From: a virus
Taxonomy: Duplodnaviria > Heunggongvirae > Uroviricota > Caudoviricetes
Virus record (IMG/VR): IMGVR_UViG_2663762839_000016
Coordinates: 1 to 13,591 of that record
Reading direction: 5' to 3' (one strand)
Length of the DNA: 13,591 bases
The notes beneath the pieces are model-generated. The model saw nothing but the letters and a program-made list of their open reading frames with translations, made no database searches and had not been told where the DNA came from. Made by a program: the position numbers and the translations under genes. Position 1 is the first letter of the stretch. Each line of letters opens with the position of its first letter. Below are positions 1 through 13,591 of this stretch, piece by piece.

Positions 1-483
1 ATGACGAAGAAAAAAGCACATAAACCTGGTTCAGCGACCATCGCGCTTAACAAGCGCGCCCGTCACGAATACTTTATCGAAGAAGAGTTCGAAGCGGGAC
101 TTGCCCTGCAAGGCTGGGAAGTTAAATCCCTGCGCGCAGGAAAAGCCAATATCAGCGACAGCTACGTCCTTCTGCGTGACGGAGAGGCATTTCTGTTTGG
201 CGCTAACATCACGCCAATGGCCGTGGCCTCCACGCATGTGGTGTGCGATCCTACCCGTACCCGCAAGTTACTTCTCAACCAGCGCGAACTGGACTCATTG
301 TACGGTCGCGTCAATCGAGAAGGCTATACCGTAGTGGCGCTCTCCCTGTACTGGAAAAATGCCTGGTGCAAAGTGAAAATCGGCGTCGCCAAAGGTAAGA
401 AACAGCACGATAAACGTTCAGATATCAAAGAGCGCGAATGGCAGGTGGATAAAGCGCGTATCATGAAAAATGCCCACCGTTAA
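1..483 (+). CDS. smpB: SsrA-binding protein SmpB (trans-translation factor), complete 160 aa
   Basis: ORF 1..483 translates to [28 protein letters not shown]..., which I recognise as near-identical to enterobacterial SmpB; it lies directly upstream of tmRNA as in E. coli. Confidence 0.95.
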
Positions 484-653
484 ACCTGCACTCCAATTAT
501 TGACCAGTTCCTCACCGCGCCTCCCTCTCCGGCGGCGCGAATGAACATCTTATTGGTTATCACATCCGACACAAATGTTGCCATTCCATTGCTTAATCGA
601 ATAAAAATCAGGCTACATGGGTGCTAAATCTTTAACGATAACGCCATTGAGGC

Positions 654-683
654 TGGTCATGGCGCTCATAAATCTGGTATACT
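654..683 (+). promoter_or_regulatory. candidate sigma70 promoter for ssrA (-35-like TGGTCA, -10 TATACT at 678-683)
   Basis: TATACT hexamer ends about 14 nt before the mature tmRNA 5' end, consistent with a short pre-tmRNA leader; the -35 is weak. Sequence reading only. Confidence 0.35.
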
Positions 684-697
684 TACCTTTACACATT

Positions 698-1060
698 GGG
701 GCTGATTCTGGATTCGACGGGATTTGCGAAATCCAAGGTGCATGCCGAGGGGCGGTTGGCCTCGTAAAAAGCCGCAAAAAATAGTCGCAAACGACGAAAA
801 CTACGCTTTAGCAGCTTAATAACCTGCTTAGAGCCCTCTCTCCCTAGCCTCCGCTCTTAGGACGGGGATCAAGAGAGGTCAAACCCAAAAGAGATCGCGT
901 GGAAGCCCTGCCTGGGGTTGAAGCGTTAAAACTTAATCAGGCTAGTTTGTTAGTGGCGTGTCCGTCCGCAGCTGGCAAGCGAATGTAAAGACTGACTAAG
1001 CATGTAGTACCGAGGATGTAGGAATTTCGGACGCGGGTTCAACTCCCGCCAGCTCCACCA
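698..1060 (+). ncRNA. ssrA: tmRNA (SsrA, 10Sa RNA), 363 nt
   Basis: Starts GGGGCTGATTCTGGATTCGACGGG and ends GGGTTCAACTCCCGCCAGCTCCACCA; contains the tag reading frame and the tRNA-Ala-like acceptor/T-arm. Confidence 0.95.
787..819 (+). other. tmRNA tag-peptide reading frame (ANDENYALAA, stop TAA)
   Basis: GCA AAC GAC GAA AAC TAC GCT TTA GCA GCT TAA read directly; the E. coli-type tag (ENY) rather than the ETY I recall for Salmonella. Confidence 0.85.
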
Positions 1061-1070
1061 AATAAATCAA

Positions 1071-1103
1071 GGGGTTACGTGAAAGCGTAGCCCCTTTTTC
1101 TTT
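1071..1103 (+). terminator. rho-independent terminator immediately downstream of ssrA
   Basis: 9-bp stem GGGGTTACG / CGTAGCCCC (one G-U pair), 6-nt loop, followed by TTTTTCTTT. Confidence 0.7.
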
Positions 1104-1115
1104 AGTAGTGGCGGC

Positions 1116-1160
1116 AAAATGGCGACAGACTTTTGCGTCCATCTTGCCTGTCGCCATCTT
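1116..1160. repeat. 13-bp inverted repeat (AAAATGGCGACAG / CTGTCGCCATCTT, 12 of 13 complementary) with 19-bp spacer upstream of the cargo ORF; candidate operator
   Basis: Read directly; lies roughly 25-70 bp upstream of the ATG at 1184, which has an AGAGG Shine-Dalgarno 6 nt upstream. Confidence 0.3.
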
Positions 1161-1183
1161 GAAATCATGCAAAGAGGTTTCAC

Positions 1184-1666
1184 ATGGAAGAACTTCACTT
1201 TGTTTACATCAATGCAAATGGTCGTATCGGTGTTCACTCTATACAGAGCATCAGTTATAGCGAAAATCATATACAGGGCATTTGTAAGAACACCGATCGA
1301 ATAAAAACCTTCCGAAAAGACCGCATTCTTAAACAGTACGATTCACCAGAACAAGCCATTCAGGAGTGCGCGTCATTCCTCCCCGAAAACTACTCACATC
1401 TCACCAAGCAGTCTGGTCCGAAAAAAAATACATTCGATGTGTGTTTCACCGGATTTAAGAAAGCAGATAAAGAAAGATTGGTTGATAAGGCGAATGAACA
1501 AGGATTAACGGTAAGAACCTCTGTAACCCAAAGCCTTCAGATGCTCTGTTGCGGTTACAATGCAGGCCCATCAAAAGTATCGGCAGCCAGGATGAAAGGC
1601 ACAATCATCATAGATGAGCCTGGCTTTATACATTTTCTTGAAACGGGTGAGATCCCAGATGAATAA
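1184..1666 (+). CDS. hypothetical two-domain protein: N-terminal WYL-like domain plus C-terminal BRCT-like domain (160 aa); prophage cargo gene
   Basis: N-terminus HFVYINANGRIGVHSI...GICKNTDRIKTFRKDRI resembles the WYL domain signature (ends like R-x-F-R-L-D-R-I). C-terminus FDVCFTGF...GLTVRTSVTQSLQMLCCGYNAGPSKVSAARMKGTIIIDEPGFIHFLETGE matches the pattern of the NAD-ligase-type BRCT domain. Good SD, visibly AT-richer than the flanking tail genes, convergent with ogr. Confidence 0.6.
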   Translation: MEELHFVYINANGRIGVHSIQSISYSENHIQGICKNTDRIKTFRKDRILKQYDSPEQAIQECASFLPENYSHLTKQSGPKKNTFDVCFTGFKKADKERLVDKANEQGLTVRTSVTQSLQMLCCGYNAGPSKVSAARMKGTIIIDEPGFIHFLETGEIPDE

Positions 1667-1668
1667 AA

Positions 1669-1684
1669 ACCTGCCGTAGCAGGT
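1669..1684. terminator. candidate bidirectional terminator hairpin between the convergent cargo ORF and ogr
   Basis: ACCTGC-CGTA-GCAGGT hairpin flanked by AAAA on one side and TCTCTTTCTC on the other. Confidence 0.5.
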
Positions 1685-1692
1685 TCTCTTTC

Positions 1693-1911
1693 TCAAAAAT
1701 TCATATGCCCCTGACCACCTGGCAATGGATGTGGAGGAGCAGTAGCAATCAGTGCGGGTGTCACAATAAACCGGACCACTGTTTCATGGGTAACAAAAGT
1801 ACTCCCGCAGTTAATATTTTGGCACTGGCAGTAACGCTCTTTGGTGCTTTCAGTTACTTGAAAACTGCTCCTTGTGTGTGCCGCATGACCACACTTTGGA
1901 CAATTCATCAT
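1693..1911 (-). CDS. ogr: Ogr/Delta-family zinc-finger late-gene transcription activator (72 aa from MMNCPKCGH...)
   Basis: C-x2-C...C-x4-C pattern and ...TKERYCQCQNINCGSTF...PHPLP... resemble P2 Ogr as I recall it; it sits after gene D as in P2. The ORF-track start at 1956 is probably 15 codons too far upstream. Confidence 0.8.
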   Translation of the reverse strand: MMNCPKCGHAAHTRSSFQVTESTKERYCQCQNINCGSTFVTHETVVRFIVTPALIATAPPHPLPGGQGHMNF

Positions 1912-1979
1912 ATCCAGATCCCTACCTTTGCTATCAGAATCATTGTAATGATACACAAAATATCAATATTGAGAACACT

Positions 1980-3088
1980 TTATTCCATTTCAAGATCATC
2001 AATCTTCACTTCGAGTTCAATACTGGTTGTAAAACCGTTATCCGGGCTGACGGTATGTGTCAGAGTCGTAATGGTCCATTCCGCATCATCTATCGGCTGT
2101 TTAAAACCACTGACCTTCACAGGCATTTCCGTGTAGAGATCTGCCCGCCCTTCCGCCAGTTGTAGCGAGAATGACGCAACGCCACGTTGCAGGCGTTCCC
2201 ACTGCATTTTCGCTGCCCGTTCAGCGTTGCTCCGGTTGGCATAAGTGCGATTAAGTACCAGCACGTTTTCATCCGTCCCCACCAGGTAATCGCCCTGCTT
2301 CGCTTCCGGCTCTTTCTTCTGCTTCTTAGTCCTGCGCTTACGCTTCACCGTAGTGCTTTCTTTCTTCGCGGGTTCGCGGGTTCGCGGGTATGCAACCAGC
2401 TGGCAATTACCCCCGTGTAAGCTCCGCGATCTGCCAGGGTAAAGCGGTGACTGTCGCCGTCCTTACGTGCGATAGTAATCACCGGCAGTGGTTTACCGCT
2501 GGCGCTTTTGCCCTGTCCCTGCCGGATGAATAACAGATTGCCATTTTTCACCGATGCAATGGCACCGTACTGGCGCGCCAGCCGCATCAAAAAACTGCCG
2601 TCACTCTCATTAGTCTGGTCTATATGCTCCACGGGCTTATCCGACAGGTCTTTACCCAGTGCCATCTTCAGCTTGTGCCGCGCGGCTATTTCCTTCACCA
2701 CTTCCCCGATGGTGGTGTTATGCCACGATTTTTCACGGCGGGTATTCAGCGTTTCCCGAAAATCAGCACTTCGCGCCCGGATAGTCAGGCGGTCCGGTGC
2801 GCCAGTGTGTTCAATCTCGTCCACCGTGAATGCCCCTTTCGGGAAAAGCGGCTGCCCCTTCCAGCCCAGCGCCAGCGTAATGACCGCACCACGGCGCGGC
2901 AGCACGATTTTTCCGTCGGCGTCGTCCAGATCCAGATCAAGCTGGTCCGCTTCAAAGCCTCGGTTATCCGTCAGCGTAAGCCCCATCAGGCGTTTGTCCA
3001 GCACAGTGGTGATATCCTTCCCCTCAATACTGATGCTGAATGCGGGAGTTTTGTTGCCTTTGTTAAGCAGTTCAGAGCTGAAATTCAC
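1980..3088 (-). pseudogene. P2 gpD-like tail protein, split by a frameshift into 247-aa (2345..3088) and 122-aa (1980..2348) pieces
   Basis: Both pieces are continuous in homology to the gpD family. The first ends ...HTREPANPRRKKALR* and the second continues KRKRRTKKQKKEPEAKQGDYLVG in another frame, overlapping by 4 nt. Confidence 0.7.
2365..2388. repeat. three perfect tandem copies of the 8-bp unit TTCGCGGG inside gene D, just upstream of the frame break
   Basis: Read directly: ttcgcggg ttcgcggg ttcgcggg. Confidence 0.9.
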
Positions 3089-3570
3089 GACAGCAGCCCT
3101 CCCACCGTTTTACTGATATCGCTTAAGGCAGACGTTGCCGTATCCTGCAAATTATTCAGCTGCGCACTGAGATCACCGAACATATCGGACATGGATTCAT
3201 CCACCCGTTTGAGCGACAGGGTAAACTCAATCCGGCGCGGCATACCATCGCGGAAAAACTCCGTTTTAGTCTGATTCAGTCCCTCAATCACATACATGCC
3301 GTAAATCGTGCCGCTGCCTTCAATCAGGGGCCATGCTTTTCCCTGTTCTGCCATCTGCTCCAGAGCCAGCAACGACAGCCTGCCGCCCGTTATCTCCGGC
3401 ATAAGAACACCAGAAAGCGTCAGCATGTCGTTGTCCGGTCCCAGAAATTGCGTGGACGGACGACGGTTTACCCGGCTGTTTTCCGCATGTCGCCAGCTGC
3501 GTTGATACTGCAGTTCCTGATACGGAACGGTGCGCAGCATAAACACGTACAATCCCAGCACCATCATCAT
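3085..3570 (-). CDS. P2 gpU-like tail protein (161 aa)
   Basis: Position between T and D; size close to the ~159 aa I recall for P2 gpU; start overlaps the T stop. Confidence 0.8.
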   Translation of the reverse strand: MMMVLGLYVFMLRTVPYQELQYQRSWRHAENSRVNRRPSTQFLGPDNDMLTLSGVLMPEITGGRLSLLALEQMAEQGKAWPLIEGSGTIYGMYVIEGLNQTKTEFFRDGMPRRIEFTLSLKRVDESMSDMFGDLSAQLNNLQDTATSALSDISKTVGGLLS

Positions 3571-5429
3571 GCGTCGTATCCCCCCTGATCGCTGTAGTTA
3601 CTCCTGGCTTTTGCCTTCAGCCTGCGTTCACGTTCATCAAGCTGGCGTGCCACCTCCCGCGCAATATCCTGCGCACTTTGTCCTGGCTGCGTCTGAATGA
3701 TGATCTGCGTCGGTGCCTCAATCCGGTGAACGGGCGGTACAGTGGCTGCACGACTCACCATCGCTTCGCCGCCTTTCGCGGGAAGTGCCAAAGGATGCAA
3801 TGGTGGAAGCTCTGCAGGCGCGGCAGCAACGCCCATCATTCCGGCAACAACGGCAGCCAGTGCAGCTGTATTTCTCCGGCTGGTCACATTTGCCGGGCCG
3901 TTAACAATTTCCGGCCCGTTTTCACCGACGATGCCAAACTGCCCGCGCGGGATATAGCCGCCGCTGTCATACATCCCCGCAAAGCCATATCCCCATGACG
4001 GAAAACCACCCGGTGGCATCATCACTTTACCGTCTGCATTCACCGTCGCAGGTTGCTGACGCGTCACGCTTTCCGGCAGTTTCGCCTTTGCAGCCTCTTT
4101 ACTGACAATGCCGAGTTTCTCCAGCAACCAGGAAACGCCGGATTTCAGGGAGTCCAGCGGATGCATGACCATATTCAGCCCTTCCGCCAGTGCCTCCCCG
4201 AATCGTCGCCCCATTGCCGCTGCACTCTGCAGTTCGGCAGAGGTCGACTTAACGGGCGTCAGCAGATCAGTAAACCAGCCCCACAGCGCCTGTACTTTGT
4301 CGCCAATCCACTGGAACACGGGCTTAAGCGGTTCGAATGCTGCACTGACGGGACCTGCCGCCGCTTTGAATCCTTCCACTACGCCACCAAGAAATGCGGT
4401 GATGGGTTGCCAGTATTTCCAGACAACCAGCGCCACGCCCGCCAGTGCAGTAACCACAAGACCTATCGGACTGAGCAGAGCACCTAACAGACCAGATACG
4501 GCATACAGGGCAACGCGCAGCATCGCCAGTGGACCAGATGCCAGTACTCGCAGCACCGTGCCTGCGGAGGCCAGTCCACCGCGCAGTACCGCCAGAGGAT
4601 TCATAAACATCACAGCAACAGCACGTAAACCGGATAATCCAGACCGCAAAAGTGCAACCGGCGCACCTGCTACAGTTTTCAGGACATTTCCCGTCAGTGA
4701 TGCCGTGCGGCGCAAAGACGACAACGGCGCAGTAAGTAAACCTGCGGCGTTGCCCGATGAAGCAAGCCCGCGTCGCAGCAGTGCAAGTGGTGCGCCAGCC
4801 AACCAGGACAACGCGCTGCTGGTTCGCGTTACTGCTGCCGTAACGGAAGGTAACGTTTTGATACCCAGCACAGAGAATCCCAGACGGATGACTGCCAGCG
4901 GCCCCAGCACAGCAGCCAACACCACAGCCAGGGTGCCGAGGCCCACAGTAACAGCAGCCACAACCGCGGCTACTTTCATCAGTGTGCCCGTCAGTTCAGG
5001 GTTAGCTTCTACCCAGCGACGCAACGCCCCCGTGATGCTTTTCACCGTGTACAGAATATCCATCAGCGGCTGGCGCAGCGTTTCGCCCAGGCTGCTGAAG
5101 GTGTTCTGCGCTCCGGTTTTGACCAGCAACCACTGCGCAGAAAGTGAGTCCTTGTTAATGTCGGATTCTTTCTGCATCGAACCGAGCGCATCATTGCCCG
5201 CTGTCAGTTTTAGCTGGCGCTGCAGTTCCGGCAGGTTGTTTGCCAGTTTCGCCGCATCATCGCCAAACTCTTTACCAAACAACATGGTCATGGCAGACAG
5301 GCGCTTATCCTGCGGCAGTGCGTTCACCTTCTCCAGTACGCGCTGGATAGTTCCCATCGCATCCTTCGTCAGCGGCATAACGTCAGTAACGGATGGCGGC
5401 CAGTGAAAGATGGTGGCGATATCAGCCAC
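3567..5429 (-). CDS. tail tape measure protein (gpT-like); ORF-track start is a GTG and the frame is continuous with the E -1 frame
   Basis: Long Ala/Gly/Leu-rich ORF with a hydrophobic central region, located between E and U. 620 aa versus the ~815 aa I recall for P2 gpT. No obvious SD before the GTG at 5429. Confidence 0.8.
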   Translation of the reverse strand: MADIATIFHWPPSVTDVMPLTKDAMGTIQRVLEKVNALPQDKRLSAMTMLFGKEFGDDAAKLANNLPELQRQLKLTAGNDALGSMQKESDINKDSLSAQWLLVKTGAQNTFSSLGETLRQPLMDILYTVKSITGALRRWVEANPELTGTLMKVAAVVAAVTVGLGTLAVVLAAVLGPLAVIRLGFSVLGIKTLPSVTAAVTRTSSALSWLAGAPLALLRRGLASSGNAAGLLTAPLSSLRRTASLTGNVLKTVAGAPVALLRSGLSGLRAVAVMFMNPLAVLRGGLASAGTVLRVLASGPLAMLRVALYAVSGLLGALLSPIGLVVTALAGVALVVWKYWQPITAFLGGVVEGFKAAAGPVSAAFEPLKPVFQWIGDKVQALWGWFTDLLTPVKSTSAELQSAAAMGRRFGEALAEGLNMVMHPLDSLKSGVSWLLEKLGIVSKEAAKAKLPESVTRQQPATVNADGKVMMPPGGFPSWGYGFAGMYDSGGYIPRGQFGIVGENGPEIVNGPANVTSRRNTAALAAVVAGMMGVAAAPAELPPLHPLALPAKGGEAMVSRAATVPPVHRIEAPTQIIIQTQPGQSAQDIAREVARQLDERERRLKAKARSNYSDQGGYDA

Positions 5430-5443
5430 CAGATCGTCAACCG

Positions 5444-5746
5444 TCAGGCTGTCGGTAAACCGGCAAGCACCGACTTCTTCAACAAAAAAGTGACAACCTC
5501 AACCGACATGGCAGTGAGATCTGCCGGGTCCATCTCTACAATTTCCTGTGCAGTCAGTGCCGGACTGGAGATGCGGGGGATCACGGTCATCATCGCGTTC
5601 ACATCCATATCCATAATGGCCTGCAGGCGCGTACCGCGCAGCGCACCGGACTGCGGTTTACGCAGCACAATTTCGGTGATTTCTGTTTTACCGCGCTTGA
5701 TGGGGGTATCCAGTTGAATAGTCTTTTCAGTCTGCTTATCGCTCAT
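5444..5746 (-). CDS. tail assembly chaperone gpE-like (100 aa)
   Basis: Small ORF directly upstream of the tape measure, with a T-TTT-TTG heptamer 11 codons before its stop. Confidence 0.75.
   Translation of the reverse strand: MSDKQTEKTIQLDTPIKRGKTEITEIVLRKPQSGALRGTRLQAIMDMDVNAMMTVIPRISSPALTAQEIVEMDPADLTAMSVEVVTFLLKKSVLAGLPTA
5483..5489 (-). other. programmed -1 frameshift slippery heptamer T TTT TTG (E to E')
   Basis: Plus strand reads caaaaaa, i.e. TTTTTTG on the coding strand in the X XXY YYZ register of the E frame; the same motif is described for P2 E/E'. Confidence 0.55.
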
Positions 5747-5800
5747 TTTGCTGTCCTGTAAATTGGGTTCTGGCGCGGTATCCCGCGCCGTTCAGATACA

Positions 5801-6316
5801 TCAGAGGCCGAGGGCGTTGCGGTGCGCTTCCATCAGGTCCACACCGTCCACAATTTCCACCATGTTGATAAGGTCCACTTCATAGAGCACCTCACCATTT
5901 ATAGTCAGCTTCGCGTAGCTGTTGGTACTGGTCACTTTGGTGGTGTTGCTTTCACCCGTCTTCCACTCGCCGGAATCCACTTCTTTGTGACGTCCACGCA
6001 CCACAAGCTCCACGGCCTGCACTTCCCCGGTATCGTCACGCTGGATAGAGCCGGTAAAGCGCAACTGGATACCATCCACCGTGGCTTTGCCCATCTGCTT
6101 AAACAGCAGCAGTTCAGTACCACCAATGGAAAATTCCGTATCCAGTGCGCCGTCATCCAGCCCCAGATCCACATCCACTGCACCCGGCATTCCGCCGCCG
6201 CGATACTTCTCATATTTGCGGGTAAATTTCGGCAGCGTCAGCGACTCAACGATCCCCTGCCAGTTGTTCCCGTCATTAAACAGGTTCAGGTGTTTTAATT
6301 TGCGTGGTAAAGCCAT
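5801..6316 (-). CDS. contractile tail tube protein (gpFII-like, 171 aa)
   Basis: Size and position downstream of the sheath gene match P2 FII. Confidence 0.85.
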   Translation of the reverse strand: MALPRKLKHLNLFNDGNNWQGIVESLTLPKFTRKYEKYRGGGMPGAVDVDLGLDDGALDTEFSIGGTELLLFKQMGKATVDGIQLRFTGSIQRDDTGEVQAVELVVRGRHKEVDSGEWKTGESNTTKVTSTNSYAKLTINGEVLYEVDLINMVEIVDGVDLMEAHRNALGL

Positions 6317-6325
6317 GTTGTCCCC

Positions 6326-7498
6326 TTACGCGCTGACCTGGCTGGAGAAATTCACCAGGTACTGATCGGTGATGCGCTGACGCAGCATCAGGTTTTCAAG
6401 TGGCGGCACTGGCGTGTAGTCGTAGTCGATGGTGAGTTTTCCGGCTTTCAGCGTGTCTTTGTCGTTCACCGACTCATCCAGCCAGCAATCACCACCAATG
6501 AGATAGCCCTGACTGACCAGGCTGCGCATTTTGGCGCGGATACCCTCGATAATGTCGCGGGCCAGCGACGGATTCAGCGGTTTATCCACCGCCCACATGT
6601 GCGCTTCTGCCATCGTGTCCGTCAGCACCTGCGCCGTGCGGGTGTAGTTTTCGAAGGCAAAGAGCGGGTCATCACTCAGGCAGCGGGAACCCCAGAAGCG
6701 AAAACCGTCTTTGCGGATAAGGGTGGTGACGTCGTTCTGGTTCAGCAGTCCCGCATCGGTTGCCGGGTCCTGCAGATCCCAGAACACATCAGCAGAAATT
6801 CCGGTGACACCGTTAACGCCCACGTTGGACAGGCTTTTGTGCCATCCGGTCTGCTCGTCAATTTTGGCGCGCAGACCAAGCGCACGGGCGGTGGCATAAG
6901 CCGTTGCTTCGGCATTCAGCACCGTGTCCCAGCCAGTAAAGTCGGGCCAGATCAGCATTCCTTCACGCTGACTGAAGTTTTCACGGTAAGTGATTGCTTC
7001 CTGCACTGTCTTGCAACCATACGCTGACAGGTAAGCAAATCCACGCAGGCTTTGCGCCACGCTCAGCAACTCAGTAGCTACCGCCTTCGTGTCGTGACCT
7101 GGCACGCCGAGAATGCGCGGTTTAACGCCGAGCTGTGACTGGGCAGATAACAGGGCTTTCATGCCTGTTTTTTTACCTTCAGCGGTCACTGCTCCGATGA
7201 TATTGGTCGTGGTTTCTTCTTCCGTTTCACCCTGCGGCACACGCACAACAACGGTCACGGGTTTTGCCTGGTCAGCGATGGCATCCAGCGAACGAGCCAG
7301 CGTGCCTGACTCACCCGCTTTACCGCTGGCAGTCAGCACATCAGTGATCAGCACGGGTTTATTAAGAGGAAACATTTTTGCATCGGCATCATCGCCCGTG
7401 CAGACCATACCCACGATGGCGGTGCTCACCGTGGTAATGGATCGGGTGCCTTCGTTGACTTCAACAACGCGCACCCCGTGGTGGTAATCCTGAGCCAT
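6326..7498 (-). CDS. contractile tail sheath protein (gpFI-like, 390 aa)
   Basis: Size and position match P2 FI; strong AGGAGG SD 9 nt upstream of the ATG. Confidence 0.9.
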
Positions 7499-7574
7499 AG
7501 TGGCGAACCTCCTGATTGGATTAGGCTTCGCCCTATGTTGAAGTGATTGTGCCTGACAAACAGCTAAGCGCAGT

Positions 7575-7592
7575 TGTACCGTTATTCACACA
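7575..7592 (-). promoter_or_regulatory. candidate Ogr-dependent late promoter element (TGT-N12-ACA dyad) upstream of FI
   Basis: TGTACCGTTATTCACACA, centred ~85 bp upstream of the FI start codon; P2 late promoters carry TGT-N12-ACA centred near -55. Confidence 0.4.
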
Positions 7593-7640
7593 AAATGACG
7601 GTATTTGTCTGCTTTCAGGGATAATCAAAATAAAGCTGAT

Positions 7641-8213
7641 TCAGGGAGATTTATTGTTCTTATTTGCCGGAAATTTTCGATAAATGGTAGAAACGCCTAC
7701 ATCAAAAATCAGTGCAATACGCTGTCTTGATTCTCCGGCCTCGAGTAAACGCCCAATCTGTGCCCACTGTTCGCTGGTCAACTTAGGACGGCGTCCACCT
7801 ACTCTGCCTTTAGCACGAGCTGCAGCCAGCCCCGCCCTGGTACGTTCAACTATCAGTTCGCGTTCCATTTCAGCCAGGGCACCCATGACATGAAAAAAGA
7901 AACGGCCCATTGGGGTGCTGGTATCAATACTGTCAGTCAGGCTTCGGAAATTCACGCCACGCTGGCGCAGCTCTTCTATCAGCGTAACAAGATGCCGCAT
8001 ACTGCGCCCCAGTCTGTCCAGCTTCCAGACAACCAGCGTGTCTCCTGCCGATAGTGTCCTGAGCAGCTTTTTCAGCCCCGGTCTGTCGGACTTGGTGCCA
8101 CTGATTTTATCCTCAAAAATCCGCTCACATCCCGCACAGTTCAGTGCATTGCGTTGCAAATCGGTGTTCTGGTCATTTGTTGACACGCGTACATAACCAA
8201 TAAGCATGATCAT
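7641..8213 (-). CDS. serine DNA invertase of the Hin/Gin/Pin/Cin family
   Basis: MLIGYVRVSTNDQNTDLQRNAL...GDTLVVWKLDRLGRSMRHL...MGRFFFHVMGALAEMERELI... recognised as near-identical in pattern to Gin/Pin, with a C-terminal HTH. Confidence 0.9.
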   Translation of the reverse strand: MIMLIGYVRVSTNDQNTDLQRNALNCAGCERIFEDKISGTKSDRPGLKKLLRTLSAGDTLVVWKLDRLGRSMRHLVTLIEELRQRGVNFRSLTDSIDTSTPMGRFFFHVMGALAEMERELIVERTRAGLAAARAKGRVGGRRPKLTSEQWAQIGRLLEAGESRQRIALIFDVGVSTIYRKFPANKNNKSP

Positions 8214-8262
8214 CCCCCTGAATAAAAACCGGAGATGATGCCAGTTAGCCGTTATCTCTGCA

Positions 8263-8288
8263 TTTTCATAAACGTTGGTTTGGGAGAA
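8263..8288. other. invertase crossover site (hix/gix-like), pin-proximal
   Basis: TTTTCATAAACG-TT-GGTTTGGGAGAA; the right half-site and central TT are identical to the reverse complement of the site at 9873-9898. Confidence 0.7.
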
Positions 8289-8729
8289 GGCTCTGCATTA
8301 CCTGTTGGTGTGCCTGTTCCATGGCCTTCAGCCACACCGCCAACAGGCTGGCTGAAATGCAATGGTGCGCCTTTTTCTGCAGAAGAATACCCGGAACTGG
8401 CCAAGGCTTATCCGACAAATAAATTGCCTGATTTACGTGGTGAGTTTATTCGTGGATGGGATGATGGGCGCGGGGTTGATAATGGAAGAAGTATCCTGTC
8501 CTCTCAGAGTGACACATTACAAGACCACGGCCATAAGTCGATAAGGTTGCGATCTGTTGGCGCAAACGGGGGAAATATTCCAGTTCCCGATGGCGGCGCT
8601 GATTTCACTGGAGATGCTGACTTAATCAATGCGATTTCAGTCCATGCATTTAACGGTGGGGTTCCAAGAGTATCGGGAGAAACACGCCCCCGCAACATTG
8701 CATTTAACTACATCGTGAGGGCTGCATAA
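8277..8729 (+). CDS. alternative (currently unexpressed) tail-fibre C-terminal segment Hv'
   Basis: Begins at the G-L-G-E codons of the crossover site, in frame; ends ...NIAFNYIVRAA, matching the P2 H C-terminus as I recall it. The upstream ATG at 8235 lies outside the invertible segment and is probably not a real start. Confidence 0.7.
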   Translation, partial: GLGEGSALPVGVPVPWPSATPPTGWLKCNGAPFSAEEYPELAKAYPTNKLPDLRGEFIRGWDDGRGVDNGRSILSSQSDTLQDHGHKSIRLRSVGANGGNIPVPDGGADFTGDADLINAISVHAFNGGVPRVSGETRPRNIAFNYIVRAA

Positions 8730-9328
8730 TGACACAGGCAAAATTAAACAGTGAATTTATTGCCACAGTAGCGGGTGATATTACCGTCTATAACTATGAC
8801 AACACGACACGGGAATACATTTCATCATCAACAGAATATCTTGCCGTTGGCGTCGGTATCCCGGCATGTTCTTGTTTAGATGCACCAGTTACACATAAAG
8901 CTGGTTATGCAATCTGCCGTTCTGCAGATTTTAACTCATGGGAATATGTACCAGACCATCGCGGTGAAATCATCTATAGCACCGAAACAGGAGAATCGAA
9001 AGAAATCACAGCTCTGGGTGATTACCCTGAAAATACAACCACTATCGCCCCGTTAACGCCATATGATAAATGGGATGGTGAGAAATGGGTGACGGATACC
9101 GAGGCACAATATAGCGCCGCAGTGGACGCGGCAGAAATCCAACGCCAGTCACTGATTGATGCTGCAATGGCTTCCATTAGTCTGATTCAGCTGAAATTAC
9201 GGGCCGGACGGAATCTGACGCAGGCAGAAACCGCCCGACTTAACGCTGCGCTGGATTACATTGACGCGGTGACGGCAACTGATACCAGCACCGCGCCGGA
9301 TATCAATTGGCCTGAACTGTACGTCTAG
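8729..9328 (+). CDS. tail fibre assembly protein (Tfa/gpG-like, 199 aa), paired with Hv'
   Basis: ...WDGEKWVTDTEAQ...NAALDYIDAVTATDTSTAPDINWPE resembles lambda Tfa / P2 G-type chaperones; immediately downstream of Hv'. Confidence 0.75.
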   Translation: MTQAKLNSEFIATVAGDITVYNYDNTTREYISSSTEYLAVGVGIPACSCLDAPVTHKAGYAICRSADFNSWEYVPDHRGEIIYSTETGESKEITALGDYPENTTTIAPLTPYDKWDGEKWVTDTEAQYSAAVDAAEIQRQSLIDAAMASISLIQLKLRAGRNLTQAETARLNAALDYIDAVTATDTSTAPDINWPELYV

Positions 9329-9537
9329 CTTACCATTACCCACGTGGGTAGCCCATTGCTACCCGCCGCTCGTTTCATTCCCTCCGGAGGCGTCCCTAAA
9401 AACTTCAGAGCCATATCGTCATCGACGGGCTTAATATCATCAGGCAGAATGCCATTTGAACGGTATGCATTGAGTAATACTGCCGGATAAAATTGATTCG
9501 TTGTCGCGCTATAAAAGTAAATATTCATTATCACCAT
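9325..9537 (-). CDS. short tail-fibre-assembly-like ORF (70 aa) paired with the expressed fibre C-terminus; possibly truncated
   Basis: N-terminus MNIYFYSATTNQFYPAVLL... looks like a fibre-assembly chaperone N-terminus, but the ORF is about a third the length of its inverted partner. Confidence 0.45.
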   Translation of the reverse strand: MVIMNIYFYSATTNQFYPAVLLNAYRSNGILPDDIKPVDDDMALKFLGTPPEGMKRAAGSNGLPTWVMVS

Positions 9538-10670
9538 CCCTTCGCATACCAGTTACATGTCAAATTTGCCGGATTAACGTTATTACCCTCTGCCGTTGCG
9601 CAGCCAACCCTGAATTTTGAGTTGCTGACAGGGAATGCCTGTGAAATCTCGGCATATGACGTGTCATTCGGATCCGAGCTAATTAAAACGAACGCACAAC
9701 GGTTCGGGAATGGGATGACAAAATCTCCATCGCCGTTTCCATAATTACCGCGCCCCCATTGCTCAAGAAATCCATCTGGCGTCAACCGCCACCCGTAATC
9801 TGCTTTCAGCGATGTCCATTTGCTCATATCAGGGATCTGATTTGCCCCAATCCCAACATCCCTTTTTGCCGCTTCTCCCAAACCAAGGTATGTGAGAAGA
9901 CCAGCTACATCCTTTCCACTCAAATTAGTCAGCGTATTGTCCAGCGGTTGTTTACCTGCCAGCGCATTAAGCATTGTCGTGGCAAAGTTCGGGTCATTCC
10001 CCAGCGCTGCCGCCAGTTCGTTCAGTGTATCCAGTGCCGCAGGTGCAGAACCCACCATTGCCGCAATCGCCGATTTCACAAATGCCGTGGTGGCAATCTG
10101 TGTATTGTTGACCGACTGTGCCGCCGTGGGGGCTGTTGGCGTTCCGGTGAGTGCCGGACTCGACAACGGTGCTTTTAGTGCCAGCGCATTGTTAATGGTG
10201 GTACTGAAATTCGGATCATTGTTAATGGCTGCGGCTATTTCTTTCAGCGTGTCCAGCGTGGCTGGCGCACCATTAATAAGGGCCGTCAGTGCCGCCTGTA
10301 CAAACGCAGTGGTCGCAACCTGCGTGGTATTATTCCCCGCCGCTGGCGTTGGCGCTTTGGGGGTTCCGGTAAATGTCGGGCTGGCTTTTGGCGCGTACTG
10401 TGAATGCGGGTCCGGTGCGGCAAGATGTTTTGCCATCTGATCATCCGCGTACACCTTCAGCGCAACCTGCTTTAAACGCGGCTGCGTCACCGTGCCGTCA
10501 GTGCGCATCACGCTGCGAAACTCCGACAGGTCCACATCAGGCCAGAACGGCGTGTTTCTGATGATTTCCGCCTGTTCCGGTGCCTGTTCTGGCGCAACAA
10601 ACTTCATGCTGCTTTCTCCTGAAATAAAGGGCGGTGGACGGGGTTTTGATGTGGTAGAGCCTTTCGCCAC
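9531..10670 (-). CDS. tail fibre protein (gpH-like repeat region and variable C-terminus) with an N-terminal ~70 aa that looks gpL-like; probable L'::'H fusion
   Basis: Residues ~80-260 match the P2 H central repeats (PALTGTPTAPTA...NTQIATTAFV...ALDTLNELAAALGNDPNFATTMLNALAGKQP). The N-terminus FWPDVDLSEFRSVMRTDGTVTQPRLKQ does not resemble a fibre N-terminus and lies where gene L follows M in P2. Confidence 0.7.
   Translation of the reverse strand: MAKGSTTSKPRPPPFISGESSMKFVAPEQAPEQAEIIRNTPFWPDVDLSEFRSVMRTDGTVTQPRLKQVALKVYADDQMAKHLAAPDPHSQYAPKASPTFTGTPKAPTPAAGNNTTQVATTAFVQAALTALINGAPATLDTLKEIAAAINNDPNFSTTINNALALKAPLSSPALTGTPTAPTAAQSVNNTQIATTAFVKSAIAAMVGSAPAALDTLNELAAALGNDPNFATTMLNALAGKQPLDNTLTNLSGKDVAGLLTYLGLGEAAKRDVGIGANQIPDMSKWTSLKADYGWRLTPDGFLEQWGRGNYGNGDGDFVIPFPNRCAFVLISSDPNDTSYAEISQAFPVSNSKFRVGCATAEGNNVNPANLTCNWYAKGW
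9873..9898. other. invertase crossover site (hix/gix-like) inside the tail fibre gene
   Basis: TTCTCCCAAACC-AA-GGTATGTGAGAA; its reverse complement shares the 12-bp half-site GGTTTGGGAGAA and the central dinucleotide with the site at 8263-8288. Confidence 0.7.
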
Positions 10671-10702
10671 CCCGTGCCGCCCGTGCGCGGGGGCACGTTC
10701 TG

Positions 10703-11107
10703 TCAGCGGCTGTCATTGCGCAGTCTGCGCTCCAGCTGCTGTTTGTCTTTTTTCACGCCACAGCGGGGATCGAGCTGTAACGCATGGTTGAGATGGTTAA
10801 GGGCAGAAGCCGGATTGCTTTCACTCAGGACAGCGCCAATCGCTTTATGCAGACGCGCCCGTGACTGGTCCGGCATATCCAGACCGTCTGTCAGCTCCAG
10901 CGTCTGCAACAACAGATCGGCATCAAAGCCGGTGGCGGCAAGCATTGCGCTCTGCGCCGCGTCTGCCATTTCCTCTGCCAGCACGGTCTGCACATTGCGG
11001 TTACCCAGCGGCATCACCCAGCCATGACGCAGGGCATGACGCCCGATCTCCAGCGCCCCGGCATAATCTCCGGCATCAATGCGCCACAGCATCACGTACA
11101 TCAGCAC
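10703..11107 (-). pseudogene. C-terminal fragment of terminase small/endonuclease subunit (gpM-like)
   Basis: MYVMLWRIDAGDYAGALEIGRHALRHG...LELTDGLDMPDQSRARLHK...GVKKDKQQLERRL resembles the C-terminal half of P2 gpM as I recall it; the N-terminal half and all genes between A and M are missing. Confidence 0.55.
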
Positions 11108-12753
11108 GTCATGCCAAAGAAGCGGAATTGCTGAACACGATGCAGAGACGCCCAGGCATTAACGTATTCAGCGTTATCACGCAGGGATTTACCCGTTTCC
11201 TTGCTGATCTCGCCAGCCAGACCACGCCCGTCAATGTTCTTACTGATGTATTTCGCGATGTAGCTTGTTGGCGTACCTTTGCGCGGGTTTATCAGCTCAG
11301 ACTTAAAGCGTGGCCCCGTGTTATTGCCCAGCTCCTCGCGGTCTTCACGGATGGCAAACTTACGCAACAATGCAGTAATGGCGCGGCGGTCTTTTTTACG
11401 CATGAAACACAACAGGTGCCAGTGAACTGTGCCGTCATGATGCGGCTCAGCCACCCGCACGCCATACCAGCGCAACCCGGCTTTGTGCATAGCCTTACGA
11501 AATGCAGCAAACATGCCGACCAGATAATCGCTGCTTTGTCTTACTGTCGCGTTGGTCCAGGTCGGGTTTGGCCTGCCGTTATTTAGCGTGGAATGGAAAC
11601 GTGACGGACAGGTGATGGTGTAGAAAACGGCGCAGTCACCACGCATTTCCGCGATAAGCTCCAGGCCTTTAACACAGGCCATCATCTCATTGCGGCGATG
11701 CGCCGGGTTGCTGCTGCTGGCGTTTACCACATCCTCCATGTTCAGCGTGTCGCCGTCTTCGTTCACCAGTTCATGAGAACGGAAAAACTCCAGCGACTTA
11801 CGGCGCTGCTCACGTTTATGCATCACGGCTTCATAGCTGACATAGGGAGATGCTTTTTTGCTGACCAGGCAGACAGCACGCAACTGCTCTTCCCACCATT
11901 CGCAACGCATCTTCCATAATTTCCGATACCACCAGTCGGCGCACAGCATACGCGCCAGCGAACCCGGAATGAGTTCATAGGGCACAGGTTTGCGGCGGTT
12001 TCTTTTCCGGCGGAGTTGCTCAAACGCAGGCGGTATGACATCCAGTCGCAGGGTTTCTGCAGCCACCTTTTCCCATGTCTTGCGGATTTCTTCTGGCTTA
12101 ACATCATCGGAGGCGTACAAATCACCACAAGCGGCATCAAGACACATGCTCATATGCGCAGCGACAAGGGTAGACAGGCGTTTCACCTGATCCTGACTCA
12201 TTTCAGGCAGGATCAGCAGACCGTCCAGCCCTTCATGGCTTGCCATAAAACGAAAAGATGCAGATAGCTGGCTGTCGCGTACATGCTCCAGTCGTTCCAG
12301 ACATGGCTTAATCGTCTCACGCAAATAGCGGGAATAAGCCTTTGGCCTGCCCAGGCTGCTGAAATATTCAATACGTTGCATCAGCGGCTTGCTGATATGG
12401 GAAGGCTGGGCGTTGACGTCGGCCAGAATGACCATGTCCGGATTAAAACGCTGCTGCTCATGCGCCATCTTTGCCCGGCTAATGAGCTTATCCTGCTCCA
12501 TTTCGCGTTGGACAGGATCACGGGATTCATTAAAGAAATAACGCTCCCAGACCTGATCACTCAGTGCCTCGCGGCGCAGTTGTTCCTGCTCGTTATCAGT
12601 AGCGTACAGAGTGATCAGGTTTGAAAGCGCAGAAACCGGCGCAACTTCCGCCGGGTCCAGATAAGGGTTAATGGCCTTTTTCGGGCTGTTCCATGAGAAC
12701 GATGCGGCAGCTTCGTTAAAGCCGCAGCAGTTGTTCATATCGGCATGACTCAT
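11101..12753 (-). pseudogene. rolling-circle replication initiator (gpA-like), C-terminally truncated
   Basis: HUH motif ([15 protein letters not shown]) and paired catalytic tyrosines ([12 protein letters not shown]) are present. The ORF stops about 35 aa after the Y motif, whereas I recall P2 gpA as ~761 aa. Confidence 0.7.
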
Positions 12754-12994
12754 GCACGTACTCCGTACACGGCAGAACTATCCACGCCACGCGAATAATC
12801 AAATCCCACCCAGCAGCGCGGCCCGGAAACAGCAATGATTTCTGTTGCTGATTTACCCTCGCCAGCTGCCACACCGATGCTGCGTTTTGCCTTGATGTAG
12901 TGGTGAGTAAAATTGCGATACAGCGAACGGATCAGGGATGTGTCACTGTTAGAAACAATGACCGGATGTCCTTCTGATGACCGATGTTCAAGAA
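12750..12994 (-). pseudogene. 5'-truncated phage gene fragment immediately upstream of A (the position of gene B in P2)
   Basis: ORF overlaps the A start by 4 nt; its apparent start codons lie within fliR-derived sequence, so the native 5' end is missing. Identity not recognised. Confidence 0.3.
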
Positions 12995-13591
12995 ATTGCC
13001 CCATCATTACCTGCCAACGATGTTCCTGTTTTTTCGTTCTTTGCTCTGTGGCTGGCCGTACAGCAGATCCTGATCGGTATTGCGCTTGGTTTTACCATGC
13101 AATTTGCCTTTGCCGCTGTGCGAACCGCTGGCGAAATTATCGGTCTGCAAATGGGGCTGTCATTTGCGACATTTGTCGATCCGGCCAGCCATCTTAATAT
13201 GCCCGTTTTAGCGCGTATCATGGATATGCTGGCGTTACTGCTGTTCCTGACATTTAACGGTCATTTATGGTTGATTTCACTGCTAGTCGATACCTTTCAC
13301 ACCCTGCCGATTGGTGGCGAACCGTTGAACAGCAATGCGTTTCTGGCACTCACCAAAGCAGGGAGTTTGATTTTCCTTAACGTGCTGATGCTGGCATTAC
13401 CGCTCATTACTCTGCTGCTGACCCTGAATCTGGCATTAGGCTTACTTAATCGTATGGCCCCGCAATTATCCATTTTTGTTATTGGATTTCCATTAACTCT
13501 GACTGTCGGTATCTCTTTAATGGCGGCATTAATGCCGTTAATTGCGCCTTTTTGCGAACATTTATTCAGTGAAATTTTTAATTTGCTGGCT
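12995..13591 (+). CDS. fliR: flagellar export-gate protein FliR, 5'-truncated (the N-terminal ~third missing); continues past the window end
   Basis: In-frame translation [77 protein letters not shown]...[12 protein letters not shown] matches enterobacterial FliR from about its first third onward; no native start codon or upstream fli sequence is present. Confidence 0.8.

What the first reader, a model, noticed from the sequence alone, without database searches (positions are those of the whole stretch)
1061..12994. Selective decay of a P2-like prophage: tail sheath/tube/tape-measure and fibre switch kept, everything else lost
At least four internal breakpoints are inferred (near 12995, 11105, 10450 and possibly within E'/T), plus a frameshift in D. 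Capsid, portal, terminase large subunit, lysis, baseplate (V, W, J, I), integrase and repressor genes are gone. Without a baseplate this cannot be a functional tailocin. The intact FI, FII, E, U, ogr, invertase and cargo ORF may be mid-decay or individually retained.
Basis: inference. Interest (0 to 1): 0.45.

Follow-up and report, generated by a model that had tools for sequence, protein, structure and literature searches.

The report
Recently broken P2-like prophage at ssrA
This is an ordinary, recently disabled P2-family prophage next to the tmRNA gene of one E. coli isolate; nothing shows its surviving genes are kept by selection, and its apparent fusion to the flagellar gene fliR is probably an assembly artefact.

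Summary
The window is the last 13.6 kb of an E. coli draft contig (GCA_000946855.1). Positions 1061-12994 are a remnant of an Elveevirus-type (P2/186/Fels-2-like) prophage inserted at the 3' end of ssrA.

- a 1.3-kb E'/T deletion (5364-5371);
- a 6.0-kb H-to-L deletion (10458-10461);
- a 6.8-kb M-to-A deletion (11111-11112);
- a +8-bp repeat expansion that frameshifts D (2365-2388);
- a blunt dam'/fliR join (12994/12995).

The interpretation needs three corrections.
- The tape measure is not kept. It lacks residues 1-424 of 1025.
- An independent (Logan) assembly, ERR738831, is 100% identical on the prophage side of the join (window 9857-12994). From there it continues into intact dam, early genes, CI repressor and integrase. 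The fliR join also has a topology that no deletion or inversion can produce. The loss of integrase and repressor is therefore doubtful.
- Nothing supports selective retention. The remnant occurs in one isolate only. It is 99.3-100% identical to an intact prophage. Broken genes show no relaxed constraint (4 nonsynonymous : 14 synonymous, against 3:6 in intact genes).

Verdict: a recent, strain-private, ordinary prophage decay. Low interest.

The parts
1..483 (+). smpB (host flank)
   Evidence: Annotated as smpB in colinear E. coli genomes. PF01668 hit in the called genes.
698..1060 (+). ssrA (tmRNA). Its 3' 45 nt (1016-1060) are the prophage attachment core (attL).
   Evidence: ARAGORN. Rfam RF00023, 296 bits. 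Identity to phage Cartapus starts at 1016. The same 45-nt core is repeated at attR of an intact prophage.
1184..1666 (+). 160-aa cargo ORF, a stand-alone BRCT-like protein. It is a conserved accessory gene of this phage group, not specific to the remnant.
   Evidence: Full-length match to phrog_2561, E 2e-77, and a match to the C-terminal part (profile positions 533-651 of 656) of the NAD-dependent DNA ligase profile phrog_3869. No Pfam hit. The exact sequence occurs on at least 1000 contigs. It is present in the intact relatives.
1693..1911 (-). ogr (late-gene activator), intact
   Evidence: PF04606, E 9e-21. Same 219-nt length as in L001.
1980..3088 (-). gene D, split into two ORFs (2345-3088 and 1980-2348) by a +8-bp tandem-repeat expansion at 2365-2388
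   Evidence: PF05954 hits on both halves. TTCGCGGG x3 here against x2 in L001 and L002.
3085..3570 (-). gene U, intact
   Evidence: PF06995, E 7e-45, full profile.
3567..5429 (-). E'-T' fusion ORF: the first ~19 codons of E' joined in frame to tape-measure residues 425-1025. The deletion junction is at 5364-5371.
   Evidence: blastn map. Junction with imperfect 8-bp microhomology. PF06528 covers residues 1-21. 98% identity to residues 425-1025 of a 1025-aa tape measure.
5444..5746 (-). gene E (tail assembly chaperone), intact
   Evidence: PF10109. Same length as in L001.
5801..6316 (-). gene FII (tail tube), intact
   Evidence: PF04985, E 6e-60, full profile.
6326..7498 (-). gene FI (tail sheath), intact
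   Evidence: PF04984, PF17482 and PF22671. 99.7% identical to the intact prophage L014.
7575..7592 (.). TGT-N12-ACA dyad upstream of FI. This is a candidate Ogr-responsive P_F element and the evidence is weak.
   Evidence: Sequence. Three matches in the window against 3.7 expected by chance, so only the position is suggestive.
7641..8207 (-). serine DNA invertase (Gin/Cin/Pin family), intact
   Evidence: PF00239 and PF02796. Annotated as a Gin homologue in Cartapus.
8263..9898 (.). invertible fibre segment, bounded by 27-nt inverted crossover sites at 8263-8289 and 9872-9898
   Evidence: The arms are 85% complementary and 1582 nt apart. Logan contig L007 ends exactly at 8289.
8238..9328 (+). 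alternative fibre C-terminal cassette (163 aa, collar domain) and its 199-aa assembly chaperone, currently in the 'off' orientation
   Evidence: PF07484 and PF02413. phrog_523 and phrog_105.
9325..9528 (-). 67-aa fibre-assembly-like ORF. This is a normal short form, not a truncation made by this decay.
   Evidence: phrog_188 and phrog_19350. The same 66-67-aa protein occurs in many Escherichia and Citrobacter genomes.
9531..10607 (-). L'-H' fusion ORF: ~47 N-terminal codons of head-completion L joined in frame to fibre H residues ~157-467. The junction is at 10458-10461.
   Evidence: PF05926 and PF21882. 98% identical to residues 155-467 of a 467-aa fibre protein. 4-bp microhomology CAGC.
10703..11101 (-). 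C-terminal fragment of the small terminase subunit M
   Evidence: PF05944, profile positions 49-130 of 130. blastn map.
11101..12753 (-). truncated replication gene A: the N-terminal 547 codons plus 3 junction codons. The junction is at 11111-11112.
   Evidence: PF05840. The intact gene is 2415 nt. 2-bp microhomology.
12750..12994 (-). 3' end of the dam methylase gene. This is the last phage DNA in this contig.
   Evidence: PF02086, profile positions 213-253 of 253. blastn map.
12995..13591 (+). fliR nt 160-756, joined bluntly to dam'. It is the terminal 597 nt of the contig and the join is of doubtful authenticity.
   Evidence: 99.8% identical to E. coli fliR. No microhomology at the join. 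The window end is the contig end. An alternative path exists in L005.

Best explanation
An Elveevirus-type (P2/186/Fels-2-like, Peduoviridae) temperate phage integrated at the 3' end of ssrA in one E. coli lineage. It was then disabled, recently and without detectable selection, by ordinary mutational accidents.

Shown:
- Three illegitimate deletions with 2-8 bp of microhomology. One of 1.3 kb lies in E'/T, one of 6.0 kb runs from H to L, and one of 6.8 kb runs from M to A.
- One slipped-strand +8-bp repeat expansion in D.
- What is left is the DNA between those lesions: an intact ogr, U, E, FII, FI, invertase, fibre cassettes and BRCT-like cargo gene, and broken D, T, H, L, M and A.
- The element cannot package, build a baseplate or lyse. 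It lacks the last 257 codons of gene A.

Inferred:
- The deletion in A probably also removes ori, which would rule out replication.
- At most the element could express a sheath/tube operon from P_F when Ogr is made, invert its fibre segment, and serve as a recombination donor for incoming P2-like phages.
- The join of dam' to fliR at 12994/12995 is most likely a chimeric contig end or a minority variant.
- In the isolate the remnant most likely continues through dam, the early genes, CI and int to attR, giving about 17 kb in all.
For: Identity and gene order:
- The window is 96-97% identical and colinear with intact ssrA prophages and with phage Cartapus.
- The tail operon is 99.3-100% identical to the intact prophage of strain 2015C-3121.

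Lesions:
- Exact junctions and their microhomologies.
- The +8-bp repeat expansion in D.
- Truncated T and H.
- The internal junctions appear in two independent assemblies. Their microhomologies are too short for chimeras mediated by k-mers.

Recency and privacy:
- The truncated proteins gpA' and D' are encoded only in GCA_000946855.1 and Logan ERR738831; records gpA' and the E'-T' fusion in NCBI and Logan, each seen on one contig.
- No complete E. coli genome carries the three deletion junctions or the fliR join.
- Private substitutions are few and mostly synonymous in intact and broken genes alike: 3N:6S against 4N:14S, Fisher p = 0.65.

The fliR join:
- L005 is 100% identical to window 9857-12994. 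It then runs colinearly, at 92.5% identity to an intact prophage, through full-length dam, cII, cox-like gene, CI and int.
- The fliR piece is only the last 597 nt of the contig.
- fliR and smpB-ssrA lie on the same strand 732 kb apart, with fliR upstream. The observed join therefore cannot come from a deletion or an inversion.
- L007 stops at 1035, inside the att core. This is within about 4 nt of where a k = 31 graph would break if a second core copy (attR) exists.
Against: - I could not prove that ERR738831 is the read set of GCA_000946855.1. If it is a sister isolate, the fliR join could be a real later event.
- The join has no Ns and no shared k-mer, so at least some reads probably span it.
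- With a single carrier genome, selection on FI, FII or the invertase cannot be formally excluded. It is only unsupported.
- Expression from P_F and activity of the invertase are inferred, not shown.
Confidence: 0.85

Rival explanations
1. The sheath, tube, chaperone, U, ogr, invertase, fibre switch and cargo gene are individually retained (domesticated) because they benefit the host, while the rest was purged.
For: These ORFs are full length. A plausible P_F dyad and ogr survive. Domestication of defective-prophage genes is a recognised phenomenon; this rests on my knowledge of the published work of that title, which I saw only as a work cited by other papers and did not read.
Against: - The remnant is private to one isolate.
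- It is at most 0.7% diverged from an intact prophage.
- Constraint does not differ between intact and broken genes.
- T, D and H, which any sheath/tube-based device needs, are broken, and the baseplate is gone.
- An independently decayed prophage at the same site, in O157:H16 strain 98-3133, lost a different block.
Confidence: 0.05
2. The dam'|'fliR join is a real chromosomal rearrangement in this isolate or in a sister isolate. It could be the novel joint of a ~0.73-Mb tandem duplication from fliR to the ssrA prophage, or a translocation. If it replaced the original arrangement, it removed the prophage early and lysogeny region.
For: - The join is clean and contains no Ns.
- Blunt joins without homology are typical of illegitimate recombination.
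- The join creates an in-frame ATG six codons upstream of FliR codon 54 (read directly from the sequence).
Against: - An independent assembly runs straight through position 12994 into dam...int with no branch.
- Only 597 nt of fliR follow before the contig ends.
- The topology excludes a simple deletion or inversion.
- No other E. coli genome has the join, and it is absent from 185,579 species representatives.
Confidence: 0.25
3. The internal deletions are themselves assembly artefacts and the prophage is actually intact.
For: The source is a short-read draft assembly.
Against: - The NCBI contig and the Logan contigs agree base for base across the junctions they share. The E'/T junction and the D +8 bp lie within L007, and the H/L and M/A junctions lie within L005.
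- The junction microhomologies are 2-8 bp, far below any assembler k-mer.
- Each junction lies inside an unbranched contig.
Confidence: 0.02

Closest known systems
Escherichia phage Cartapus (Peduoviridae; Elveevirus) and intact ssrA-integrated prophages such as those of E. coli 2015C-3121 (NZ_CP027340.1) and EC23HZZ201 (NZ_CP168035.1)
   Same: 96-100% nucleotide identity. The gene order is identical: cargo-ogr-D-U-T-E'-E-FII-FI-invertase-fibre switch ... L-M ... A-dam. The ssrA att core is the same.
   Different: The window lacks 14.1 kb in three internal blocks and has a frameshifted D. In this contig it also lacks everything beyond the dam 3' end.
P2, 186 and Fels-2 (classical P2-family temperate phages; Fels-2 also uses ssrA). 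This comparison rests on my own knowledge of these phages.
   Same: The FI-FII-E-E'-T-U-D late operon, the Ogr activator, the A rolling-circle initiator, and the 186-like cII, fil, dinI and CI early region (annotations).
   Different: Similarity to them is distant at nucleotide level. The only Salmonella P2-like phage in the hit list, SEN8, is 81% identical over 63% of the window. I did not align directly against P2, 186 or Fels-2.
Other defective P2-like remnants, for example the independently decayed ssrA prophage of E. coli O157:H16 98-3133 and the K-12 cryptic P2 remnant ogrK/yegZ (from my own knowledge)
   Same: The same kind of object: a P2-family prophage reduced by internal deletions, with the tail end next to the att site surviving.
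   Different: The deletion endpoints differ. Strain 98-3133 lost H-to-Q but keeps intact T, D and A. The events are therefore independent and there is no shared retained core.
R-type tailocins (phage-tail-like bacteriocins derived from P2-like tails)
   Same: Homologous sheath, tube, chaperone and U genes, and an Ogr-type activator.
   Different: There is no baseplate (V, W, J, I) and no lysis cassette. The tape measure and fibre are truncated and D is frameshifted. It does not work like a tailocin.
Gin/Cin/Pin/Hin-type invertible tail-fibre switches
   Same: A serine invertase beside a 1.6-kb segment bounded by 27-nt inverted sites, with two opposed sets of fibre C-terminus plus chaperone.
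   Different: The constant N-terminal part of the fibre gene (residues 1-156) is deleted, so switching has no virion to act on.

Membership tests
P2-family (Peduoviridae, Elveevirus-like) prophage | Conserved late tail operon FI-FII-E/E'-T-U-D followed by ogr, in that order | tested here: met
   Pfam hits in order. Colinear blastn to intact prophages and to Cartapus. T and D are damaged.
P2-family (Peduoviridae, Elveevirus-like) prophage | Integration at a tRNA or tmRNA 3' end, with a duplicated att core at both ends | tested here: inconclusive
   The attL core at 1016-1060 is identical to the attR core of an intact prophage. attR is not in the window. Indirect support comes from the Logan contig break at 1035 and from int being present on L005.
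P2-family (Peduoviridae, Elveevirus-like) prophage | Complete head, packaging, baseplate, lysis and replication modules, meaning a functional prophage | tested here: not met
   14.1 kb carrying I, J, W, V, S, R, lysis, X, N, O, P, Q and parts of H, L, M, A, T and E' is missing.
R-type tailocin | Baseplate, full-length tape measure, receptor-binding fibre attached to the baseplate, and a dedicated lysis cassette | tested here: not met
   The baseplate and lysis genes are deleted. T lacks residues 1-424, H lacks residues 1-156 and D is frameshifted.
Gin/Cin/Pin-type invertible fibre switch | Serine invertase plus inverted crossover sites flanking alternative fibre C-termini | tested here: met
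   PF00239 and PF02796. Inverted repeat at 8263-8289 and 9872-9898. Opposed cassettes.
Gin/Cin/Pin-type invertible fibre switch | Actual inversion, with both orientations present in a population | not testable with these tools
   The only hint is that Logan contig L007 ends exactly at the inner edge of the left site, 8289. A second related fibre segment elsewhere in the genome would give the same break.
Domesticated (selectively retained) prophage genes | The same remnant conserved across divergent strains, with purifying selection acting after inactivation of the phage | tested here: not met
   The remnant is found in one isolate only. It is 99.3-100% identical to an intact prophage. Private substitutions are 3N:6S in intact genes and 4N:14S in broken genes, p = 0.65.

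The most novel reading that the evidence does not exclude
The blunt dam'|'fliR join is real. It would mark the novel joint of a ~0.73-Mb tandem duplication or translocation with one endpoint inside the defective prophage, and it would create an in-frame M-T-D-V-Q-E-FliR(54-261) ORF. Alternatively, the intact sheath/tube/invertase block is an early stage of domestication.
Probability: 0.15. Interest if true: 0.25.

Novelty: already known. Interest (0 to 1): 0.08.

Why it matters
It matters little biologically. Defective P2-family prophages are common: 1,288 of 5,426 complete E. coli genomes (24%) carry a related L-M segment. Decay by short-homology deletions is textbook behaviour.

The useful lesson is methodological.
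- T and H are truncated.
- The remnant is private to one isolate and nearly identical to an intact phage.
- The fliR junction, the key evidence for loss of the lysogeny module, sits in the last 597 nt of a draft contig and is contradicted by an independent assembly.

Tried and rejected
- Exact-pattern scans of the species-representative genome set for the dam'/fliR junction and the M'/A' junction found nothing.
- Literature searches for ERR738831 and GCA_000946855 found nothing. The link between the run and the assembly therefore stays inferential.
- A look-up of the 379-aa L'-H' ORF from its GTG start failed, because gene callers use the L start codon. The ORF as called (358 aa) is on record.
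- A tailocin reading was rejected because the baseplate, lysis genes and intact T, D and H are missing.
- A defence-hotspot reading of the cargo ORF was rejected. The described P2 hotspot lies between A and Q (PMC9122126). That interval is deleted here.
- The cargo gene has only weak PADLOC hits, no Pfam hit and only marginal PDB matches to RFC1 BRCT, E 0.07.
- The TGT-N12-ACA motif is not enriched: 3 found against 3.7 expected. It counts only as positional support for P_F.
- Rfam finds nothing but the tmRNA.

Full report
**Source and flanks.** The window is the last 13,591 nt of contig CDRI01000009.1 of the NCBI draft assembly GCA_000946855.1. Locus L004, fetched from that contig, is 100% identical to window 1101-13591, and the window end is the contig end. 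RefSeq names one of its proteins as Escherichia coli (WP_205248973.1). The left flank is smpB (1-483) and ssrA (tmRNA, 698-1060).

**What the region is.** From 1016 onward the DNA matches phage genomes, and from 1061 to 12994 it is phage-specific. Coverage and identity are 77% at 96.1% to Escherichia phage Cartapus (Peduoviridae; Elveevirus) and 84-90% at about 96% to intact prophages at ssrA in complete E. coli genomes. Pfam and PHROG scans give the expected P2-family genes in P2 order:
- a BRCT-like cargo ORF, then ogr, D, U, T, E and FII;
- FI, a serine invertase and the fibre cassettes;
- fragments of H, L and M, a truncated A, and the 3' end of dam.

**Checking the breakpoints.** blastn against an intact prophage (L001, NZ_CP168035.1, annotated) gives a clean piecewise colinear map.
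- Window 1-5371 = L001 3001-8363.
- Window 5364-8479 = L001 9682-12798.
- Window 9825-10461 = L001 14389-15025.
- Window 10458-11112 = L001 20991-21645.
- Window 11111-12994 = L001 28487-30370.

There are therefore three internal deletions.
- 1318 bp covering the tail of E' and the first 424 codons of T.
- 5965 bp covering H codons 1-156, I, J, W, V, S, R, the lysis genes, X and most of L.
- 6841 bp covering the 5' part of M, N, O, P, Q, the cos-proximal accessory genes and the last 257 codons of A.

The junctions carry an imperfect 8-bp, a 4-bp and a 2-bp microhomology. This is the signature of illegitimate recombination.

The D frameshift is a slipped-strand expansion. TTCGCGGG occurs three times at 2365-2388, against twice in L001 and L002.

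**What survives and what does not.** FI (390 aa), FII (171), E (100), U (161), ogr (72), the invertase (188) and the cargo ORF (160) have the same lengths as in intact relatives. Contrary to the title, the tape measure is not kept.
- The 620-aa ORF at 3567-5429 is the first ~19 codons of E' fused in frame to T residues 425-1025 of 1025.
- The fibre H keeps only residues ~157-467, fused in frame behind ~47 codons of L.
- A keeps 547 of 804 codons.

With D, T and H broken and the baseplate, head, packaging and lysis genes gone, the element cannot form a tail, a tailocin or a phage.

The fibre switch is structurally complete.
- The invertase is intact.
- There are 27-nt inverted sites at 8263-8289 and 9872-9898.
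- There are two opposed sets of fibre C-terminus plus chaperone.

The switch no longer has a functional fibre gene to act on. The 67-aa ORF at 9325-9528 is a normal short form found in many genomes, not a casualty of the decay.

**The fliR junction.** From 12995 the window is fliR nt 160-756 at 99.8% identity, on the + strand and reading towards rcsA. The join is blunt, with no shared bases. Three observations make it doubtful.

First, it is followed by only 597 nt before the contig ends.

Second, its topology is wrong for a deletion or an inversion. In MG1655, fliR (2.0229 Mb) and smpB-ssrA (2.7549 Mb) are on the same strand with fliR upstream. A join of 'ssrA -> prophage -> dam' to 'fliR nt 160 -> rcsA' can only be the novel joint of a ~0.73-Mb tandem duplication or a translocation.

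Third, an independent assembly disagrees.
- Logan contig ERR738831_230 (L005) is 100% identical to window 9857-12994 and includes both private deletion junctions.
- It then continues, unbranched and colinear at 92.5% with an intact prophage, through full-length dam (285 aa), three small early genes, DUF5347, cII (169 aa), a cox-like gene (80 aa), CI (210 aa) and integrase (338 aa).
- A second Logan contig (L007) is 100% identical to window 1035-8289.

The truncated proteins gpA' (550 aa) and D' (247 aa) are encoded nowhere in the 153-billion-gene index except in GCA_000946855.1 and ERR738831. The cluster look-up likewise records gpA' and the E'-T' fusion (596 aa) only in NCBI and Logan, each seen on one contig. 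The most economical reading is that ERR738831 is this isolate's read set. I could not confirm this.

L007 stops at 1035, inside the att core. This is within about 4 nt of where a k = 31 graph would break if a second core copy (attR) is present.

I therefore consider it likely, at about 65-70%, that the fliR join is a chimeric contig end or a minority variant. On that reading the remnant retains its whole lysogeny and early module. Even on the alternative reading (a sister isolate), the integrase and repressor were present after all three internal deletions had occurred.

**Is the decay 'selective'?** The evidence says no, or at least gives no support.
- The three deletion junctions and the fliR join are absent from all 5,426 complete E. 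coli genomes, and the fliR and M'/A' junctions are absent from the species-representative set.
- For the tail operon, the nearest intact prophage (strain 2015C-3121, L014) is 99.3-100% identical to the window, so very little time has passed.
- I counted substitutions private to the window against seven relatives. There are 3 nonsynonymous and 6 synonymous in 3,747 nt of intact genes, and 4 nonsynonymous and 14 synonymous in 5,502 nt of broken genes (Fisher p = 0.65). Broken genes show no relaxation, so these substitutions predate the inactivation.
- An independently decayed prophage at the same site, in O157:H16 strain 98-3133, lost a different block (H to Q) and kept T, D and A.

The surviving genes are best explained as the DNA lying between a few random, recent lesions.

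**Likely behaviour (inferred).**
- ogr and a TGT-N12-ACA dyad 85 nt upstream of the FI start codon survive. The motif alone is not statistically informative.
- The FI-FII-E-(E'T')-U-D' operon could therefore still be transcribed if Ogr is made.
- If the early region is present, CI would keep the element silent, and Int plus Cox could still excise it.
- Replication is excluded by the truncated A. By analogy with P2, this probably also removes the origin inside A; that is my own knowledge and was not tested.
- The realistic residual roles are as a recombination donor of tail and fibre modules for incoming P2-like phages, and as carrier of the conserved BRCT-like accessory gene.

**Comparison with known systems and verdict.** This is a member of a very well known class, a defective P2-family prophage at ssrA. 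It fails every defining test for a tailocin and the test for domestication. It passes the structural test for a Gin/Cin-type switch, though one stripped of its target. Nothing here would surprise a specialist. Novelty: already known. Interest: about 0.08.

Noticed in passing
window 3567-5429, 9531-10607 and 12977-13591: Two of the three internal deletions, and the fliR join, each leave an open in-frame fusion ORF: E'(1-19)-T(425-1025), L(1-~47)-H(157-467), and ATG-MTDVQE-FliR(54-...). This is probably coincidence, since each has a chance of 1 in 3. RefSeq names the L'-H' fusion 'head completion/stabilization protein'.
   Followed up: partly
window 8289 and 9857 (ends of Logan contigs L007 and L005): The Logan contigs of ERR738831 break at or near the two invertase crossover sites, although the arms share only 15 exact nt, which is less than k = 31. 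Either both orientations of the fibre segment are present in the sequenced culture (an active invertase), or a second related fibre segment exists elsewhere in the genome.
   Followed up: partly
window 1184-1666: The 160-aa ORF next to attL is a stand-alone BRCT-like protein. It matches phrog_2561 and the C-terminal part of the NAD-dependent DNA ligase profile phrog_3869, with a weak PADLOC PDC-S48 hit. It occurs on at least 1000 contigs. Its annotations disagree: 'hypothetical', 'BRCT domain-containing', 'NAD-dependent DNA ligase' and 'putative exonuclease'. Its function is unknown.
   Followed up: partly
L002 (NZ_CP051001.1, E. coli O157:H16 98-3133), locus 14125-18073: An independently decayed prophage at the same ssrA site. 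It is deleted from fibre H to portal Q but keeps the cos-proximal accessory block, which includes a TIR-domain protein.
   Followed up: no
L015 (NZ_CP025881.1, E. coli 503440), locus 1-8600: A partial A gene, dam, the early genes, CI and int are followed directly by a frameshifted cargo ORF, a frameshifted ogr and a full tail operon. This looks like tandem or rearranged P2-like prophages.
   Followed up: no
window 1705-2136 (+): A 143-aa ORF antisense to ogr and the D 3' end is called as a gene in both assemblies. It has no Pfam, PHROG or PADLOC match and is probably a spurious call.
   Followed up: partly
window 10458-11112: A related L-M segment occurs in 1,288 of 5,426 complete E. coli genomes (24%), which shows how common P2-family prophages are.
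   Followed up: no
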